From Kondoa subrosea (Eukaryota), in NCBI GenBank assembly GCA_039545335.1, contig BCIN01000011.1:1-64000 (forward strand): a stretch of DNA of 64,000 nt. The letters are read 5' to 3'. The notes beneath the pieces were generated by a model. The model worked only from the letters and a program-made list of their open reading frames with translations. It was not told the DNA's origin and did not search any database. Shown one piece after another: positions 37,480 to 44,900 of this stretch (its first letter is position 1; each line of letters begins with the position of its first letter). A program made the translations under genes and the position numbers.

Positions 37480-40248
37480 ATGGCTCAAAATGCTCCTATT
37501 CGTCGAGGTGGTGTAAAGATCAAAGCACCTCGCACTTCTGTTCAATCATCAACCGAAAACTGGACCAAGCTCGCTAAAGCCATTGGAGAAATTCAGAACA
37601 AACGAGCAGGTCGTTTATCTTTCGAAGAACACTATAGATATGGTTATCAATTAGTCTTACATAAGCAAGGCAATGTCTTATATCAAGGGTTGACTAAATT
37701 GATTGAAGAACATTTGAAGGAAGAGACGAGCAATAAGATTGGACCTGCTTTCCCTTCAGATGCTGCTATTGAGAATGTAGCTACTCAAGCCGGAAGAGAT
37801 GCTAATTCCACTTCGGGCGAAGCTTCAGCTCAACAAGGAGAAACGTTTCTTACTGCTGTCAAACAAGTTTGGGACGATCACCTTGTGTGCATGTCCAAGC
37901 TGAAAGATGTACTCAAATATATGGTGCGCGATACATCCCAGTCATCTGTATAATGCTGATACCAGTCCATGTATGGTGTACAGGACAAAGTCTATGTCAC
38001 TTCAACCGTTCCACCGTTGCTATCCACCTATACTCTCGGTCTCTCACTCTTCCTTACAACAGTCATCCGTAACACTTCTCACACAGTACAGAAAACTCTT
38101 ATAGCAGTCTTACTTTCCCAAATCAGGCTCGACAGACAAAATCAAACCATCAATAAATCAGCTATCCGATCTTGCGTCTCCATGTTGACAGTACTGAAAG
38201 ATAAAGGAGGAGAAGAAGGACCATCAGTTTATTCCACCTTGTTCGAAAAAGCTTTTTTAGCAGATACTCAGTTATTCTATTCAAACGAAACTGAAGAATT
38301 ATTATTGAATGGAACAGCTGTTGAATATTTAATCAAAGTGGAAAGAAGATTGTTTGAAGAAGATGAAAGGTTACATCATTACCTGAATTTAACAACTCAA
38401 TATCCTTTGGTGGAATTGTTGGATCGAACTTTTTTATCCGATCATTTACCTCAAATCCTTTCACATTCTTCTGGTGGCTTAGCAAACTTGTTGGAAATGA
38501 ATCAAATACCTGAATTAAGTAGGATGTATCGTTTGTTTGCAAGAGTGTCGGAAGGTCATAAAGTACTGAAGAAAGCGGTGAAGGAATGGACAGTTCTTAC
38601 TGGATTAAAGATTGCCGACACGCTTGCGACGTCAGCTAAAACTGTAGTAGCGGAAGATGAGAAAGGCAAAGGAAAAGAAGGAGCTCCTCCACCGACTGTT
38701 CAAGGTTTGGGTGTTACGAGCGCTTTGATGTGGGTTCAAGGGGTTTTGGATCTGAAAGATAAGATGGACAAGATCGTCAAGGATGCTTGGGAGAATGATC
38801 TTATCTTCATGACCGTTGTCAATGAGGTGCGAGATGATGTCGTCAGTTATAGTAAAATGCTGATGTTTTGTCGATGTAGGCTTTCGAAAGCTTCATCAAC
38901 CAGAATCAGAAAGTAGCAGAATTCGTCTCTCTCTTCTTGGATGATCACCTCAAGAAGGGTCTCAAAGGCGTGAGTGAGATGAGCGTCTTTTTAGCGTAAA
39001 GCTGATTTGCCTCTCGTCATCACGTACAGAAATCAGATGACGAGATCAATACCGTTATCGACAAAGCTATTACCATCTTCCGCTTCATTTCCGACAAAGA
39101 CTTCTTCGAAACTTTCTATAGACGACATCTTGCTCTTCGTTTGCTTTCGAAACGATCTGTTTCGGACGATGCAGAACGAGCAGTCCTTACCAAGCTCAAA
39201 GTCGAATCTGGCGCTGGCTTCGTGCGAGACCTGCAAGGCATGCTTACGGATATCAAGCTCAGCGATGACACCATGCGAGATTACAAAGCACATATTCAGA
39301 AATCAGGAAAGGTTCGTTTGATGCACTCTTTGCTGACAATTAGTTAACGATTGTTTTGATTGAACGAACAGGAACTACCTCACGATTTGTCAGCGCAAAT
39401 ATGTACTTCTTCCTACTGGCCAATGACCGATTCTTCTCTATCTTCCTCCTCATCACAAACAGCTATCTTCCCTGAATCTTTCGCTAAATCGATAAAGTCT
39501 TTCGAATCTTTCTACCTCACGCGGCATACTGGTCGCAAACTCGCTTGGAGAGCGGATATGGGAACAGTGGATGTTCGGGTCCAATTCAAGGCTAGGAAGC
39601 ATGAGTTGAACTTGACGACGCATTGCATGATCGTCTTGTGCCTGTTCGAATCTTTAGCTGAAGATGAGACACTTTCTTTCTCCGTGAGTGCGAATGCTCT
39701 GCAGGTCCAATTTGTGACTAAGACCGCACTCTTCGCTCAAAGGAAATCGCTACCGGCACTGCTATACCTACTTCTGAATTGAAACGAGTCTTACAATCAC
39801 TAGCATGCGGCAAGCATCGAGTCCTGACCAAAGAACCTAAATCAAGAGATGTAGCGGAAACGGACAAATTCTATTTCAATGAAGCCTTCACTTCACCGTT
39901 GGCCAAGATCAAGATTCAGCAAATTGCTAATAGGGTGGAAACGACCGAAGAAGGCAAAGAAACTAGAATGAAAGTAGAAGAAGACCGAAAGTATCTCGCT
40001 CAGGTAGGTCCTCCTCATTATTGCTCAATAAACATGACTGATGAATTCATCAGGCGTGTATTGTTCGCGTCATGAAAGATAGAAGAACTATGCAGCACAG
40101 CGATCTGGTGCATGAAGTAACAAGACAGCTGGCGAATCGATTCCAGCCTAAACCTATCATGATCAAGCAACAGATCGAAATCATGCTTGAAAGAGAGTAT
40201 CTCGAACGAGACGAAAGCAACAGGAAGATGCTCAAGTATCTAGCATAA
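37480..40248 (+). CDS. CUL3: Cullin-3
   Basis: LSFEEHYRYGYQLVLHKQGNVLY; AEFVSLFLDDHLKKGLKG; LKRVLQSLACGKHRVL; neddylation motif ACIVRVMKDRR. Confidence 0.95.
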
Positions 40249-40770
40249 ATTCTCAACATCGCGCTAGCGCGCTCGTGGCATTCGAACAAGAGAACCCAAT
40301 CTTGCTCGTGCATCAGAGCATGACTACGAGGCTTCTCTTTCTTGCTTGGATTTTCATCAAGCGGGACAATCAGCTCCACTGTCTCCGATACGCAATCTTC
40401 TCTGTCACGTCACGAGATACATGCTATAGAAGTCATTTGTTCTGGCGGCTTGTAGGCACCGTAGTCACTTTTCAAGAGTCGAAAGGGAGCAATACGGATT
40501 TGTGGAGATCTCTCGATCTGTCTTTGAAGATATGCTAGTTTACAATACGTGGTCGAAACTACCGCTCTCCTGCACTGTCTATCGCTTGAGAAGTATGAAT
40601 TATCAGAGACAGTAGAGGACTTTCTATTTCTGCGAGACATCCAAAGCAACGAGTCAGGGCTGGCTTGAGCAATAGAACGTACCAAGACCCAGAAAATCGG
40701 TTACGAATATGATGACCATCTTTCTCCCAATTCAGCTCTATCACATTTCATACAGTATCTCCTGATGATT

Positions 40771-41040
40771 GAAAGCCAGAAGAAATTTGATACAGTCAAA
40801 GTCTATCTGCTCTCCAAGGCATCCGAGCAGCCAATCTCAAGCTAGCGGGCGAAGCAGGAAGTCCGACCACTTGACTTCCTGCCACATTCTTGCCTCATCC
40901 CTCTGGACGACCAGTCGCGAGGCTGATTGCCCTTCTCGAAAGCAGAGCAACCTCTGGAGCACGCTGACTAGGGGGCGCACTAGCTTGATTCTGTTATCGG
41001 ATTCCCCTCATACAGGCAAAGATAGAATGGGTATGAAAGT
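40771..41040 (-). ncRNA. Candidate structured ncRNA module, copy A of a diverged tandem pair
   Basis: Closing stem 40837-40847/40978-40988, two branched arms and a 3' hairpin; covaries with copy B; G-U pairs form only on the minus strand. Confidence 0.6.
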
Positions 41041-41122
41041 AATAGAATGAAAAGGTTGAGCTTGCATCTTGAGCCTTCCCATTCCACTACAAACACTCCA
41101 TACACTATTGAAGAATGAATGT

Positions 41123-41376
41123 GAGCGCGAGAACTTTGAACCAAAGTCTCCTTCGCTCGCCAACAGGACGAGCAGCCTGTACCAAACCAGTGGGCGACGC
41201 GAAGAAGTCCGACCAATGAACTTCTTGCGCCCTTCTTGCCACAATCCTACTTTGTCCGATCGCGAGGCTGATTGTCCTCATAGGAAGACAACCGCTGGAG
41301 CACGCTGATCAGGGAAGCACTGGTTTGGTTCTGTCTCGTCGTTGCTTCATTAGACAGATAGAATGGGGCTGGAAGT
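41123..41376 (-). ncRNA. Candidate structured ncRNA module, copy B of a diverged tandem pair
   Basis: Perfect 12-bp closing stem 41181-41192/41318-41329; same architecture and identical loop motifs as copy A, with different stem sequences. Confidence 0.6.
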
Positions 41377-41919
41377 GAAGGAAGTGAAAAAGGGAAGGAA
41401 GATGTTCAGGATGAAGAAGAAATAGAAGCGCAAGCGGCCTTTTTGTTCGAGCTTGTTGTTTCGCCATGGTCTGGTTTGATATTGAACACGAGAAATGGCA
41501 AGCGCCAGATCTGCTAGCGGAACGCAAGCAAAGCGCTGCCCAAAGATGGCTTGACGGAGTAAGAGATGCGAGACTACAAGTAGACGATACGAAACTAGGG
41601 ACAGCAATGACCAGAGCAGGAGACAGAATACAGTTGAAGTCACAAAAAACGAAATGTAAATGAAAGCTTTTAGAGTTGCTGCAATTGCAAGCGACAGACA
41701 GCCTGACGAGAAGAGAGCATACGCGCTAGATCCTTGAGCCGCTGGCGTGCACATTTGCTTCGTATGTTGCGGTTCGGACAGAGAGTGACAATGTCAATGT
41801 CCGTTGATGTTCGAGTCAATATCTTGAGTTTTTGCTACACGCAATGATGCTCAAAGTTAAGTAAAGTCATATGTTTACATTCACAGGTAGTACAACACTG
41901 TCTCCCTGCATGCTTTCGC

Positions 41920-44900
41920 TTACGCTTCAGATCCGTTTGTAATGATTCTGGGAAAAAGTATAAGTTGGCAGCCAAGTGTCACAAGGATAATGCGACATAC
42001 CGTGTAGCGATGTTCATGGCTTGCAACTCCTGAAAGAGTAGCTTCGCAGCATATGGCAGCAAGACTTGAGAGACTATTCAAAGCACGTCAGCTTGTGCAT
42101 GCAACAGAACGCGTAGCCTACTGTTCGTCTTGTTCCTGCACGACCGACATTCAAAGGACTGCTTCTTCAAGTTTGCAATGGCTAAAAGTCCGCAGAAATC
42201 GCAGACATGAATTCTAGATCGCAAGTGAGACAAAATTGTTTCAGGACAAGCAGTCACGTACCGATAGCCATCTGAAGCTTCGAACATCCTCTCTTTCAAG
42301 AAGCCAGCAATACCATGCGAGATCATGCAATCACGTTCCATTTCTCCGAAACGCAGACCACCATCTCTAGATCGACCTTCAACAGGTTGTCTTGTAAGTA
42401 TTTGAACAGGTCCACGAGCACGCGAGTGGATCTTGTCGTCGACCCTGGATCGACCTGATCAGCGGGGCAGGAGCAACCCGTTAGACTACTCACATGTGCT
42501 TCAATCGCTGGTAATACGTTGGACCAAGGTAAACTTGGGCTTGTAATTTTCTTCCAGTGTGACCATTGTACATGACTTCCAATCCACGACTGTGGTAGCC
42601 ATGCTGCTTCAACATATCTGAAATGCCTTCGACGGTAACATCGGTGAAAGGCGTGGCATCTCCTTCTTTTCCACTCAAGGTACCGACTTTACTCAGCAAA
42701 CATTCGACCAAATGCCCAATTGTCATACGCGAAGGAATAGCGTGAGGGTTGATGATAATATCTGGAGTAATACCATCTGCAGTGAAAGGCATATCTTCTT
42801 GACGATAAGTAATGCCGACTGTTCCTTTTTGACCGTGACGTGAGGCAAACTTGTCACCGACCTGCGGTATCCGTGTTGCGCGAGTCCTGATTTTAACGAA
42901 TCTTAGACCTTCAGAGTTGGTAGTGAGCATGACATGATCCACGTAGCCAGATTCAGTTGACTTGAGCGGTGTTGATACGTCTCTTTTGATGTGATCTTTG
43001 CTTCGTAAACCTAATTCTTCACTGTCTGGCGGAAGAGGAGCAGTCTTTCCGATAATAATATCATCTCCAACCACATTGCAGCCGACTCCGATCAATCCAT
43101 CATCTTCTAGCTTATCGTAAGTGCCATGCTTGAGTCGCAGCGTCTCCCTTCTATTTGGTTTCTCAAACTCTTCCATCTGGATGATACCCTTTTTCTTTTC
43201 TTGATCCATATAAGTTCTATAGTATAGCGAACGGAAGAGACCACGATCAATGGAAGATTGAGCCATGATGACGGAATCTTCCTGGTTGTAGCCAGAGTAG
43301 CAGAGAATTGCCACGATCGCGTTTTGACCAGCAGGCAGATCCCGAAAGTGTAGATACTCCATACTCCGAGTTGTCGCGAGAGGTTTTTGAGGGTAATACA
43401 GAATGTTTGAAGAGTTGTCGAGACGGACTTGATAGCTGGTGAGGTAGATTCCCATAGCTTGCTTGCCCATAGCGGATTGATAGGTGTTACGAGGAGACTA
43501 CGGAGATTGTCATGATCTATGCGAGCATATGTTAGAACGAGACAGCATACCTGGTTGTGATCAGGGAAAGGAATAATACTTGCGCAGATACCAAGAATCA
43601 TTGCTGGGTGGATCTCGCAATGTGTCCAAGTATTTGTGCTGACAAAGTTCTTGTGTCGAGCACCGCCAGCGATCTCTGATCTCATTTCTCTTGCGGCTTG
43701 TTGGTCTCTGGACAATTCGATATCTCCAGGTGCCATACAGATCATGACCGTCTCTTCCTCGTCGGCATCCAGGTATTCGACTACACCCTTCTCGAGCAAA
43801 GTAGACCAACTTGTATCTATCGGACTTCCGCCTTCATCGTATTCTTGCTCATCGCCGACAATCTTGCGCACATCGGACTTTGTGATGAGAAGTTCTTGCT
43901 TTTTCTCATCAACAATAAAAAGCGGTCGACAGACTCGACCAGCATCCGTGAAGATTCGTAGCTCGCGCTCTCGCACATCTCTGACCACTGATACTTCATG
44001 ACTGATATCACCACAACGTCTGAGCCTCTTGATTGTGTTGACTAAGGAAGCAGGTTCTCGATGAATACCTTGCCAAACACCATTGACGAAAACTTTGGTG
44101 CCTTTGCCTAGATCAGACGATAATTCTTCCAGATTTTCTAGACCCCATTCCTCCAAGAATTCCACTATAGGAGCTGAAGGTGAACCGACAGAGACATAAG
44201 ACATGAGAGCGAGATTCTTGACCAGACCACAAGCTTGACCTTCAGGAGTTTCAGCAGGACATACCATTCCCCAATGCGAGTTATGTAGTTGACGAGGTTT
44301 AGCAATCTTTCCATCTCGTCCAATAGGTGTGTTACATCTTCGTAAATGTGAAAGCGTTGATGCATAGGTGTAGCGGTTCAGCACTTGAGATACGCCAGCC
44401 TTTGCAGACATTGATTTCTTTTGATCTCCCCAATTTCCTGTTGCGAGCGAATAACGCAGACCATTGGTGATGGTAGAAGATTTGACAGCCGAATTGAGTG
44501 TGAAAGGTTTCTGAGTTTCGACGCACTGTACGATGACGAAGGGAGTAAGCTGCGCCCGACAGCTAATTCACAAGTCACACACCTTTTGTAGATGACGGTA
44601 CACATCTCTTGTTAGCTTGCGGAAGAGCATTCGGAACAGAGCAGCTAAAAGAGGTCCAGCCAAATCCAACCTCTTCCTACCAAAATGATCTCGATCGTCC
44701 AACTCTCTGCGCTCCAAAACAGCAAGCAAAAGACGATGAACCATATAGCCAAAGAAGTAAGCTTTCTTTCCTGATTGTCCTTCCATCATTGAAATATGCG
44801 GTAACATTTCTTTCTGCAGGATTTCATGCGCATACCTCACTCTTCGTTCTCTTGTCAGACCAGTAGTCGTTCCTCTTCTTCCAATGAAATCCAAAGCCAC

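What the first reader, a model, noticed from the sequence alone, without database searches (positions are those of the whole stretch)
40771..41376. Tandem pair of diverged elements with a covarying multi-branch RNA structure: candidate undescribed ncRNA family
SEEN: between CUL3 and RPB2 lie two ~260-nt copies about 340 bp apart, with no shared ORF. Read on the minus strand, several blocks are identical in both copies (CCCAUUCUAUCU, UCAGCGUGCUCCAG, CAAUCAGCCUCGCGA, GGCAAGAA, UGGUCGGACUUC, UCGCCC, GGCUGCUCG), while the stems change sequence but keep pairing. Closing stem: UCAAGCUAGUG/CGCUAGCUUGA (A) vs ACCAAACCAGUG/CACUGGUUUGGU (B). Arm 1 base: CUAGUC/GACUGG vs CUGAUC/GAUCGG. Arm 1 tip: GGUUGCUCU/AGGGCAAUC vs GGUUGUCUUC/GAGGACAAUC. 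Arm 2: GGCAGGAAGUC/GACUUCCUGCU vs AAGAAGUU/GACUUCUU, around a conserved UGGUCG loop. Outer stem: AUCCGA/UCGGAU vs GACGAG/CUCGUC. G-U wobbles work only on the minus strand. KNOWN: it lacks the hallmarks of U1-U6, U3 (boxes B/C/D), SRP (helix-8 GNRA), RNase P/MRP, 5S, telomerase template and hammerhead cores. INFERENCE: selection on RNA structure with invariant internal loops (UGCUCCAG/AGCCU) suggests a protein- or ligand-binding RNA module, duplicated and retained.
Basis: partly seen in the sequence, partly recalled or inferred. Interest (0 to 1): 0.88.

Follow-up and report, generated by a model that had tools for sequence, protein, structure and literature searches.

The report
Two tandem copies, unknown structured RNA
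Two neighbouring, diverged copies of a roughly 240-base sequence in a basidiomycete fungus keep the same intricate RNA fold through many paired mutations, which marks them as likely genes for a structured non-coding RNA that matches no described family.

Summary
Two copies lie head to tail on the minus strand: B about 41350-41123 and A about 41011-40771. They sit in the 1.7-kb gap between a cullin gene and RPB2, which converge. The cores are 82% identical.

Both fold into the same shape: a long rod, a branched head with two long arms, and a 3' hairpin. RNAalifold finds 58 shared pairs, 11 of them compensatory. In my own helix-by-helix register, 63 of 63 pairs hold in both copies, and 17 changed on both sides. 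The consensus fold has z = -7.7 on the minus strand and -4.6 on the plus strand.

Rfam 15 gives no relevant match, even at E up to 10. The sequence lacks C/D boxes, H/ACA boxes, a standard Sm site, GNAR loops, a credible B box and a tRNA shape.

The window holds only these two copies. The whole 340-nt unit was duplicated, and the spacer has diverged more than the RNA.

I could not test relatives, because no fungal genomes were on hand.

Verdict: most likely a new structured ncRNA gene pair of unknown function.

The parts
41054..41394 (-). Duplication unit B (the upstream unit on the minus strand): CT-rich leader, RNA body, 3' hairpin and spacer, ending at a T-run.
   Evidence: The two units align end to end: 373 columns, 80% mean column identity. 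T-runs lie at 41391 and 41053.
40693..41053 (-). Duplication unit A (the downstream unit).
   Evidence: A TTTT run starts at 40696.
41123..41350 (-). Copy B, minimal structured RNA, from the conserved AUGA to the end of hairpin H1 (228 nt).
   Evidence: CM R1 scores 214.6 bits over 41351-41157.
40771..41011 (-). Copy A, minimal structured RNA, from the conserved AUGA to the end of hairpin H1 (241 nt).
   Evidence: CM R1 scores 230.5 bits over 41011-40812.
41356..41367 (-). Invariant leader block CCCAUUCUAUCU, copy B. It is either a single-stranded 5' element of the RNA or a core-promoter element.
   Evidence: Identical in both copies. These are the only two exact matches in the window.
41020..41031 (-). 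Invariant leader block CCCAUUCUAUCU, copy A.
40978..41007 (-). Copy A rod, 5' strands: P0 GGGG 41007-41004, P1 AUCCGA 41002-40997, ACAGAA 40994-40989 (its CAG is paired), P2 40988-40978.
   Evidence: every pair is standard in both copies. Pairs changed on both sides: P0 4 of 4, P1 5 of 6, P2 3 of 11.
40816..40847 (-). Copy A rod, 3' strands: P2 40847-40837, invariant GGCUGCUCG 40832-40824 (CUG paired), P1 UCGGAU 40826-40821, P0 CCUU 40819-40816.
40911..40971 (-). Copy A arm 1: P3a, P3b, P3c and P3d with invariant internal loops (blocks UCAGCGUGCUCCAG and CAAUCAGCCUCGCGA). The tip is variable.
   Evidence: P3a has 2 of 6 pairs compensated. P3b and P3c are invariant.
40895..40910 (-). Copy A mini-arm UCGUCC/GGAUGA (ACAA/UUGU at 41255-41241 in copy B). 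An alternative pairing is CCC/GGG (UCC/GGA in B) extending arm 1.
   Evidence: The single-copy folds give the mini-arm. RNAalifold prefers the alternative. Not settled.
40848..40894 (-). Copy A arm 2: GGC/GCC base, invariant GGCAAGAA, an 11-bp stem, and a loop with invariant UGGUCG.
   Evidence: The 11-bp stem has 2 compensated pairs and 1 pair changed on one side.
40771..40814 (-). Copy A 3' hairpin H1. It holds the conserved GAGC and GACUUUG.
   Evidence: Both copies fold this hairpin. Of the 5 base pairs, 1 is compensated and 1 is changed on one side.
41318..41344 (-). Copy B rod, 5' strands: P0 CAAC, P1 GACGAG, ACAGAA, P2.
41161..41192 (-). Copy B rod, 3' strands: P2, GGCUGCUCG, P1 CUCGUC, P0 GUUG.
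41193..41312 (-). Copy B head: arm 1 41312-41256, mini-arm 41255-41241, arm 2 41240-41193.
41123..41158 (-). Copy B 3' hairpin H1.

Best explanation
These are two paralogous genes, made by tandem duplication of a ~340-nt unit, for a structured non-coding RNA of at least ~230-240 nt read from the minus strand. It belongs to no described family.

**The fold.** The RNA has a ~24-bp interrupted rod (P0, P1, CAG/CUG, P2) and a three- or four-way junction. Arm 1 is long, with invariant internal loops. Arm 2 is shorter, with an invariant UGGUCG loop. A 3'-terminal hairpin (H1) follows.

**Shown here:** the fold has been kept by selection since the duplication. Stems changed sequence but not pairing, while loops and bulges stayed identical.

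**Inferred:**
- The invariant unpaired blocks are binding sites for proteins, so the RNA is the scaffold of a ribonucleoprotein particle.
- Each unit is transcribed by RNA polymerase II from just downstream of its CT-rich leader, or the two units are read as one precursor.
- If the invariant block CCCAUUCUAUCU lies within the RNA, it may be a single-stranded element that pairs with a target RNA, as the 5' ends of U1, U3 or U11 do.
For: - **Shared fold:** RNAalifold finds 58 pairs, 11 compensated and 0 broken.
- **Hand-registered helices:** 63 of 63 pairs are standard in both copies. 42 are unchanged, 4 changed on one side and 17 changed on both sides.
- **Against shuffles:** consensus-fold z = -7.7, with 0 of 300 shuffles as good.
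- **Strand:** the minus strand is 9-12 kcal/mol more stable, and its z is -7.7 against -4.6 for the plus strand. The helices hold 10 G.U cells.
- **Structure from one copy alone:** double changes keep the pair in 12 of 15 cases from copy A and 11 of 16 from copy B. On the plus strand the figures are 7 of 13 and 8 of 12.
- **Uneven constraint:** the spacer after H1 is still alignable (z 5.6) but far less alike than the RNA body (z 46).
- **Not coding:** indels are not multiples of three, and Pfam finds nothing on the local ORFs.
- **No known family:** 0 of 4227 Rfam families reach their gathering score anywhere in the window. At E up to 10 there are three stray matches, to two miRNA families and one bacterial sRNA family. 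All are far below their gathering scores, and one is on the wrong strand.
- **Copy number:** only two copies in 64 kb.
- **Setting:** a 1.7-kb gap between two genes that converge, which leaves room for a separate transcription unit.
Against:
- **No homologue outside the window.** The metagenome pattern scan gave 19 stretches, all GC-rich bacterial chance matches. They fit the model only over the typed pattern or score 10.8 bits or less.
- **Other scans empty.** The prokaryote-genome scan gave 1 chance match and the viral scan gave 0.
- **Only two sequences.** Covariation cannot be tested on a tree, and I chose the registers of P0 and P1 by eye.
- **No class hallmark.** No protein partner can be named.
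- **Promoter problem.** The promoter of copy B was not part of the duplicated unit: the sequence upstream of B does not resemble the B-A spacer (z 0.5). How copy A is transcribed is therefore open.
- **Rfam coverage.** Rfam seed alignments probably hold few sequences from this subphylum (my own impression, not checked).
Confidence: 0.5

Rival explanations
1. It is a strongly diverged, lineage-specific version of a known housekeeping RNA that Rfam's models miss. Candidates are an snRNA, a U3-like snoRNA, or RNase P, RNase MRP or SRP RNA.
For: - **Topology:** a 5' tail, a helix-closed multi-way junction and a 3' hairpin, as in U1 or U11. The rod with a two-armed head recalls the SRP S domain. 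Both comparisons are recalled, not computed.
- **Lineage quirks:** snRNA genes in this subphylum can be unusual. Reference lists cite spliceosomal introns in the U1, U2, U5 and U6 genes of Rhodotorula hasegawae (titles seen). U12 and U4atac candidates were reported in Phakopsora (passage seen).
- **Isolated organism:** the best RPB2 identity is 86%.
- **By-eye resemblances:** the leader resembles U3 box A'/A, and part of copy A resembles the U6 ACAGAGA-AGC region. This is recalled and was not tested.
Against: - No Rfam family reaches E of 10 or better on the right strand apart from two miRNA families.
- Hallmarks are absent or not conserved between the copies. There is no box C/D pair, no ANANNA/ACA and no GNAR loop. 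The AGC of copy A is AAC in copy B. The ACUUUG lies inside a stem (read).
- Covariation runs through the whole body, so no intron interrupts it.
Confidence: 0.17
2. The two folds are cis-acting modules inside a longer polymerase II transcript. That transcript could be a long RPB2 3' extension or a non-coding host transcript. The modules would act as stability, localisation, processing or ligand-sensing elements rather than as free RNAs.
For: - They lie on the same strand as RPB2, starting about 600 nt after its stop.
- The unit was duplicated without B's upstream region, which fits co-transcription.
- An intron-like stretch (GTACGT ... CTGAC ... CAG) lies about 100 nt downstream of copy A on the same strand (read).
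- The pattern of conserved junctions and loops with covarying stems also fits an aptamer.
Against: - A 1.2-kb 3' UTR would be long for a compact fungal gene (my own expectation, not tested).
- No coding gene follows on the minus strand: the local ORFs have no Pfam match.
- Each unit carries its own conserved leader, 3' hairpin and spacer blocks, as separate genes would.
Confidence: 0.15
3. It is the RNA of a selfish or repetitive element: a SINE-like retroposon, or a satellite or retrozyme-like repeat whose transcript is rod-like and branched. It happens to be present here as two units.
For: - Head-to-tail units of ~340 nt are bounded by similar CC-TTTT-C stretches at 41394, 41056 and 40700.
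- T4-T5 runs lie at the unit ends.
- In unit A the leader and the spacer can pair into a long terminal rod (z -3.7 and -2.5).
Against: - Only two copies in 64 kb.
- The copies are 18% diverged yet keep every pair, which dead repeats would not.
- No ribozyme family matches.
- Leader-spacer pairing is not better than shuffles in unit B (z -1.4 and 0.0).
- The B-box-like stretch matches the recalled consensus at 7 of 10 positions and lacks its key C (read by eye).
Confidence: 0.1
4. No RNA function. The paired changes arose at the DNA level, by template switching within inverted repeats during replication, or by chance.
For: Template-switch mutation can make apparent compensatory changes in hairpins in a single event. 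Only two sequences are available here.
Against: - The helices whose strands lie 150-190 nt apart (P0, P1, P2) hold 12 of the 17 compensated pairs.
- All 10 wobble cells are G.U on the minus strand, and that strand folds 9-12 kcal/mol better. DNA hairpins would not show this bias.
- 0 of 300 shuffles reach the observed consensus energy.
Confidence: 0.05

Closest known systems
U1 / U11-type spliceosomal snRNAs (topology only; recalled)
   Same: A single-stranded 5' region, a multi-way junction closed by a helix, and a 3'-terminal hairpin. Size is around 200 nt. Such genes are often present in several copies.
   Different: - There is no 5' sequence that could pair with a splice site, and the two leaders differ where that sequence would lie.
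- There is no standard Sm site. The only candidate, ACUUUG, lies inside hairpin H1.
- The closing helix is a ~24-bp rod rather than 4-5 bp.
- No Rfam U1 or U11 match.
SRP RNA, S domain (helix 5 rod with helices 6 and 8)
   Same: A long interrupted rod ends in two arms. One arm carries conserved internal loops.
   Different: - No GNAR tetraloops. The arm tips are UUCG-like or CUAU, and the arm 2 loop is a 9-nt loop holding UGGUCG.
- No helix-8 motif and no Alu-domain hairpins.
- None of the Rfam SRP families matches at E up to 10.
U3 snoRNA
   Same: A conserved single-stranded 5' block lies upstream of a closed, branched 3' domain. By eye, the leader loosely resembles box A'/A (recalled).
   Different: - No box C', B, C or D. 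Only AUGA is shared by the two copies.
- There is no hinge region between the leader block and the body.
- No match to the Rfam U3 families.
RNase P / RNase MRP RNA (P3-type arm)
   Same: Arm 1 is a helix-loop-helix hairpin with an invariant internal loop, like the protein-binding P3 arm. The ends of the body are paired.
   Different: - I found no CR-I or CR-V motifs and no P4 pseudoknot partner by eye.
- The order of domains differs.
- No Rfam match.
'Conserved intergenic structures' of Ascomycota (Gao, Jones and Rivas 2021, PMC8216456; abstract and passages seen)
   Same: Free-standing intergenic fungal RNAs recognised only by covariation, with unknown function.
   Different: That screen covered Ascomycota only, and the paper says Basidiomycota were left out. 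Three of its four intergenic structures are single hairpins with an H box. This RNA is larger, branched and lacks an H box.

Membership tests
Any Rfam 15 family (4227 models) | Covariance-model score at or above the family's gathering score | tested here: not met
   0 matches in the whole window. At E up to 10 the only matches are mir-6301 (17 bits, cut-off 70), DUF2693-FD (13.9 bits, cut-off 44.5, plus strand) and mir-1228 (15.6 bits, cut-off 88).
Box C/D snoRNA (including U3, U8, U13, U14) | Box C (RUGAUGA) near the 5' end and box D (CUGA) near the 3' end, brought together by a terminal stem as a kink-turn. The consensus motifs are recalled. | tested here: not met
   Only AUGA is shared (UAUGAGG in A, AAUGAAG in B). 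No CUGA or shared GA partner sits in register on the 3' side of P0 or P1 (read).
Box H/ACA snoRNA | Hairpin, hinge (ANANNA), hairpin, then ACA three nt from the 3' end (recalled). | tested here: not met
   Both arms are enclosed by the rod P0-P2. The copies share no ANANNA between the arms and no ACA near the end.
Sm-class snRNA | A single-stranded Sm site (purine, A, U4-6, G, purine) between two stems (recalled). | tested here: not met
   The only candidate, GACUUUG(A/G), has C where the first U should be. It forms the 5' strand of hairpin H1 in both copies.
RNA polymerase III type-2 gene (tRNA-like promoter) | Internal A and B boxes, and a T-run terminator just after the RNA (recalled). | tested here: inconclusive
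   - The B-box-like GGTCGGACTTC matches 7 of 10 consensus positions by eye and lacks the conserved C.
- The A-box-like stretch lies in the covarying P2 stem and differs between the copies.
- On the minus strand, no T4 run lies inside either RNA body.
- T4-T5 runs come only at the unit ends, about 70-75 nt after H1.
SRP RNA | Helix 8 with a GNAR tetraloop and conserved symmetric and asymmetric loops; helix 6 with a GNAR loop (recalled). | tested here: not met
   No SRP family matches.
tRNA / tmRNA | Cloverleaf found by ARAGORN | tested here: not met
   0 genes in the window.
Small self-cleaving ribozymes (hammerhead, twister, twister-sister, pistol, hatchet, hairpin, HDV-like) | The family's conserved core, as modelled in Rfam | tested here: not met
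   No match. Neither strand carries a CUGANGA ... GAAA core shared by both copies (read). Cleavage itself cannot be tested here.
SINE / MITE | Many dispersed copies, target-site duplications, and a polymerase III promoter or terminal inverted repeats | tested here: inconclusive
   Only 2 adjacent copies in 64 kb by nhmmer and by the CM. A genome-wide count is not possible because no genome is held.
Protein-coding exon pair | A shared open frame, indels in threes, and mostly third-position changes | tested here: not met
   - Indels are 4, 1, 1 and 4 nt.
- The ORFs over the two copies share only one short peptide.
- The local ORFs have 0 Pfam hits.
- The ORF over copy A matches 0 of 1.84 billion representative proteins.

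The most novel reading that the evidence does not exclude
This is the RNA of a previously unknown ribonucleoprotein particle in a deep-branching Pucciniomycotina lineage. It has a U1-like layout without belonging to any snRNA or snoRNA class. Its invariant 5' block (CCCAUUCUAUCU) would pair with a target RNA, while its invariant internal loops hold lineage-specific proteins. Equally new alternatives: the conserved junction and loops could form a catalytic site or a ligand-binding pocket.
Probability: 0.3. Interest if true: 0.75.

Novelty: categorically new. Interest (0 to 1): 0.58.

Why it matters
Systematic screens for structured RNAs in fungi have been confined to Ascomycota. The 2021 screen that found 17 new structures says it left Basidiomycota out (PMC8216456, passages seen).

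A ~240-nt RNA with about 60 conserved base pairs, invariant loops and no class hallmark would be a new entry in the short list of large structured eukaryotic RNAs. It could point to an unknown RNA-protein machine.

Two old paralogues in one locus also work as an internal comparison. That makes the structural case unusually strong for a single genome.

If it turns out to be an aberrant form of a known RNA, it would still show how far such RNAs can drift in this subphylum. It would also give Rfam a missing seed sequence.

The label 'categorically new' is provisional. It means only that no known family or class feature was met here. The function is unknown, and expression and homologues are untested.

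Tried and rejected
- **Whole-genome search:** no genome is held for the window.
- **Earlier notes of this scan:** nothing by place, by sequence or by words.
- **Metagenome scan** with two invariant blocks of arm 1: 19 stretches, all in contigs of 55-74% G+C. None holds the other long blocks. I therefore could not fetch the closest RPB2 relative, a 3.7-kb JGI contig whose protein is 86% identical.
- **Prokaryote-genome scan** with two other blocks: 1 chance match in an actinomycete MAG.
- **Viral contigs:** 0.
- **CM R1** over the window and the 20 fetched loci: only the two copies match as a whole. Of the other 16 matches (20.4 bits or less), 14 cover only the typed pattern and 2 are spread thinly over the model at 10.8 and 7.5 bits.
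- **Stray gene calls in relatives:** I looked for homologous DNA through spurious protein predictions, using the plus-strand ORF over copy A. 0 of 1,835,955,588 representatives matched.
- **Literature:** no paper holds the 15-nt invariant block. Searches on Pucciniomycotina snoRNAs and on Microbotryomycetes ncRNAs found nothing relevant.
- **Kink-turn** from AUGA and the 3' tail: the registers do not fit in either copy (by eye).
- **Leader-spacer terminal helix:** RNAalifold predicts one with 1 compensated pair, and the single folds give other registers. Duplex energy beats shuffles in unit A only, so I left it as tentative.
- **Pseudoknots:** leader with the arm 2 internal loop, and the CCAG bulge with UUGG in the tail. 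Both are possible on paper and untestable with two sequences.
- **Resemblances to U6, U6atac, U12 and RNase P CR-V** in copy A: not shared by copy B, and not supported by Rfam.
- **Tandem Repeats Finder:** it does not report the 340-nt period, only two 9-nt micro-repeats.
Full report
**Setting.** The window has 45% G+C.
- On the plus strand, a cullin-family gene (Pfam PF00888 on three exons) ends near 40246.
- On the minus strand, RPB2 (Pfam domains 3-7) ends near 41960 after a last short intron.
- The two genes converge and leave about 1.7 kb between them.
- The RPB2 exon is at most 86% identical to anything in the protein collection. That best hit is an unnamed JGI metagenome protein. The best named hits are Leucosporidium at 84% and other Microbotryomycetes at 81-83%. 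Puccinia striiformis is at 80%.
- The cullin exon finds only 3 relatives, at 33-43% identity.
- The organism is therefore a Pucciniomycotina-like basidiomycete without a close sequenced relative in these data, and it is not a rust.
- I could confirm the left gene as a cullin, but not specifically as CUL3.

**The repeat.** The repeat finder gives six collinear direct-repeat families spaced 336-346 nt apart.
- The two minus-strand copies align at 81-82% mean column identity.
- A local alignment and end-to-end alignment show that the whole ~340-nt unit was duplicated. Unit B runs about 41394-41054 and unit A about 41053-40693.
- The ~90-nt spacer after each copy is still alignable (z 5.6 against shuffles) but far less alike than the body (z 46). 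The sequence upstream of B does not resemble the B-A spacer (z 0.5).
- The body has thus been held more tightly than its spacer since the duplication. B's upstream promoter region was not copied.
- Similar CC-TTTT-C stretches stand at all three unit borders.
- nhmmer and a covariance model find no third copy in the 64 kb.

**The fold.** The copies taken singly fold with z = -2.4 and -3.2.
- RNAalifold on the sequence alignment gives 58 shared pairs. 11 changed on both sides, 4 changed on one side, and none is broken.
- The consensus energy of -62.45 kcal/mol is reached by 0 of 300 column shuffles (z -7.7). The plus strand gives z -4.6.
- The minus-strand cores are 9.3 and 12.4 kcal/mol more stable than their complements.
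- To avoid circularity, I took the minimum-energy structure of copy A alone, over the whole 290-column region including the flanks, and read it on copy B through MAFFT's alignment. Of 85 pairs, 43 were unchanged, 9 plus 12 were changed but still paired, 8 plus 3 were broken, and 10 fell in gaps.
- From copy B alone, of 86 pairs, 52 were unchanged, 4 plus 11 were changed but still paired, and 14 plus 5 were broken.
- The plus-strand figures are worse: 6 plus 7 kept against 21 plus 6 broken from A, and 10 plus 8 kept against 24 plus 4 broken from B.
- Most broken pairs lie in the flanks, or in the outer stem, which MAFFT misaligns.
- When I registered the helices by hand (13 segments, 63 pairs), every pair is standard in both copies. 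42 are unchanged, 4 changed on one side and 17 changed on both sides. There are 10 G.U cells.
- I chose the registers of P0 and P1 by eye, and they hold 9 of those 17 pairs. Without them, 8 double and 4 single changes remain, and all keep the pair.

**Anatomy** (copy A coordinates; copy B is in the parts list).
- A CT-rich leader with the invariant CCCAUUCUAUCU (41031-41020), followed by a shared AUGA.
- A rod made of P0 (GGGG/CCUU in A, CAAC/GUUG in B), P1 (AUCCGA/UCGGAU in A, GACGAG/CUCGUC in B), an invariant CAG/CUG set in ACAGAA and GGCUGCUCG, and P2 (11 bp).
- Arm 1 (40971-40911). Its base and tip covary. Its middle is invariant on both strands: GCG/CGC, GCU/AGC, the bulge CCAG, and GGUUG/CAAUC.
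- A short middle hairpin (UCGUCC/GGAUGA in A, ACAA/UUGU in B). The alternative is a CCC/GGG extension of arm 1, which RNAalifold prefers.
- Arm 2 (40894-40848), with the invariant GGCAAGAA, an 11-bp stem, and a loop holding the invariant UGGUCG.
- A 3' hairpin H1 (40814-40771) that forms in both copies and has one compensated pair at its base.

**How far the RNA extends.**
- RNAalifold on whole units adds a helix between the leader (including CCCAUUC) and the spacer block GAAU.GGG, with one compensated pair.
- The single folds choose other registers.
- Leader-spacer duplex energy beats shuffles in unit A (z -3.7 and -2.5) but not in unit B (z -1.4 and 0.0).
- I therefore treat a ~330-nt RNA closed by its two ends as possible, but not shown.
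- On the minus strand, T4-T5 runs stand only at the unit borders, about 70-75 nt after H1. No TATA-like box was found in either unit or in the ~310 nt upstream of unit B.
- Part of B's leader is a 9-nt micro-repeat.
- I recall, but did not check, that CT-rich tracts just upstream of start sites are a known core-promoter feature in filamentous fungi. That would give each unit its own start.

**What it is not.**
- Rfam 15: 0 of 4227 families reach their gathering score in the window.
- With permissive filters and E up to 10, the region and each copy alone give only three stray matches, all far below their cut-offs: mir-6301, mir-1228 and DUF2693-FD. The last is on the plus strand.
- ARAGORN finds no tRNA in the window.
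- Read against recalled consensus motifs, the copies share no box C/D pair, no H and ACA boxes, no free Sm site, no GNAR loops, no hammerhead core and no convincing A/B boxes (see the membership table).
- Copy A alone shows loose resemblances to parts of U6, U6atac, U12, U3 box A and RNase P CR-V. Copy B does not share them, and they fall in covarying stems, so I count them as chance.
- It is not coding.

**Homologues and expression: not obtained.**
- No genome is held for this window.
All are in GC-rich, bacterial-looking contigs without the other blocks. Under the covariance model, 14 of the 16 extra matches cover only the typed pattern, and the other two score 10.8 and 7.5 bits.
- The prokaryote-genome scan gave one chance match and the viral scan gave none.
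- No predicted protein anywhere resembles the ORF over copy A.
- No paper in the library holds the 15-nt block.
- An exact pattern can miss true relatives, so these blanks say little about how widely the RNA occurs.

**Interpretation.**
- *Shown:* two old paralogues keep an elaborate minus-strand fold through many paired changes, while their loops stay fixed.
- *Inferred:* they are genes for a stable structured RNA that serves as a protein scaffold. It may act through a single-stranded 5' element.
- I put 0.5 on a new ncRNA family.
- The rivals are a diverged known RNA (0.17), cis modules of a longer transcript (0.15), a repeat-element RNA (0.10), and a DNA-level artefact or chance (0.05).
- Background for the second reading: snRNA genes of a yeast in this subphylum carry introns (titles seen in reference lists), and minor-spliceosome RNA candidates were reported in Phakopsora (passage seen).
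- Background for novelty: the main fungal structure screen covered Ascomycota only (passages seen).

**Verdict.** Function, expression and distribution remain open. I set interest at 0.58. The structural evidence is strong and no family fits, but the case rests on two sequences from one locus.

Noticed in passing
window 41960-42060, minus strand: The RPB2 reading frame seems to run on past an apparent stop through a short last intron (GTATGT ... CCCAG). This gives a C-terminus of ...[13 protein letters not shown], so the RPB2 stop lies near 41960, about 600 nt upstream of copy B.
   Followed up: partly
window 40625-40690, minus strand: An intron-like stretch (GTACGT ... CTGAC ... CAG, about 60 nt) lies about 100 nt downstream of copy A. 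It follows a short ATG-started frame. It may belong to a spliced, possibly non-coding, transcript on the same strand as the RNA copies.
   Followed up: no
window 41391, 41053 and 40696, minus strand: T5, T4 and T4 runs, set in similar CC-TTTT-C stretches, mark the three borders of the two duplicated units. They could be micro-homology used in the duplication, or polymerase III terminators.
   Followed up: partly
window 41371-41401 and 41085-41107: Two 9-nt micro-repeats: GGAAGTGAA x3.6 and CACTACAAA x2.6 on the plus strand. The first makes up the CT-rich leader of copy B. In copy A's leader, CATTCTAT occurs twice.
   Followed up: no
window 40700-40775 and 41054-41122, minus strand: The spacers after the two copies share conserved blocks (UGUAUG.A.UGU, GAAU.GG.AG, AAGAUG). 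They are purine-rich and broadly complementary to the pyrimidine-rich leaders.
   Followed up: partly
window 42490-43497 (RPB2 exon): No protein in the 5.8-billion collection is more than 86% identical to this highly conserved exon, and the organism's own RPB2 is not listed. The genome seems to come from a lineage with no close annotated relative.
   Followed up: partly
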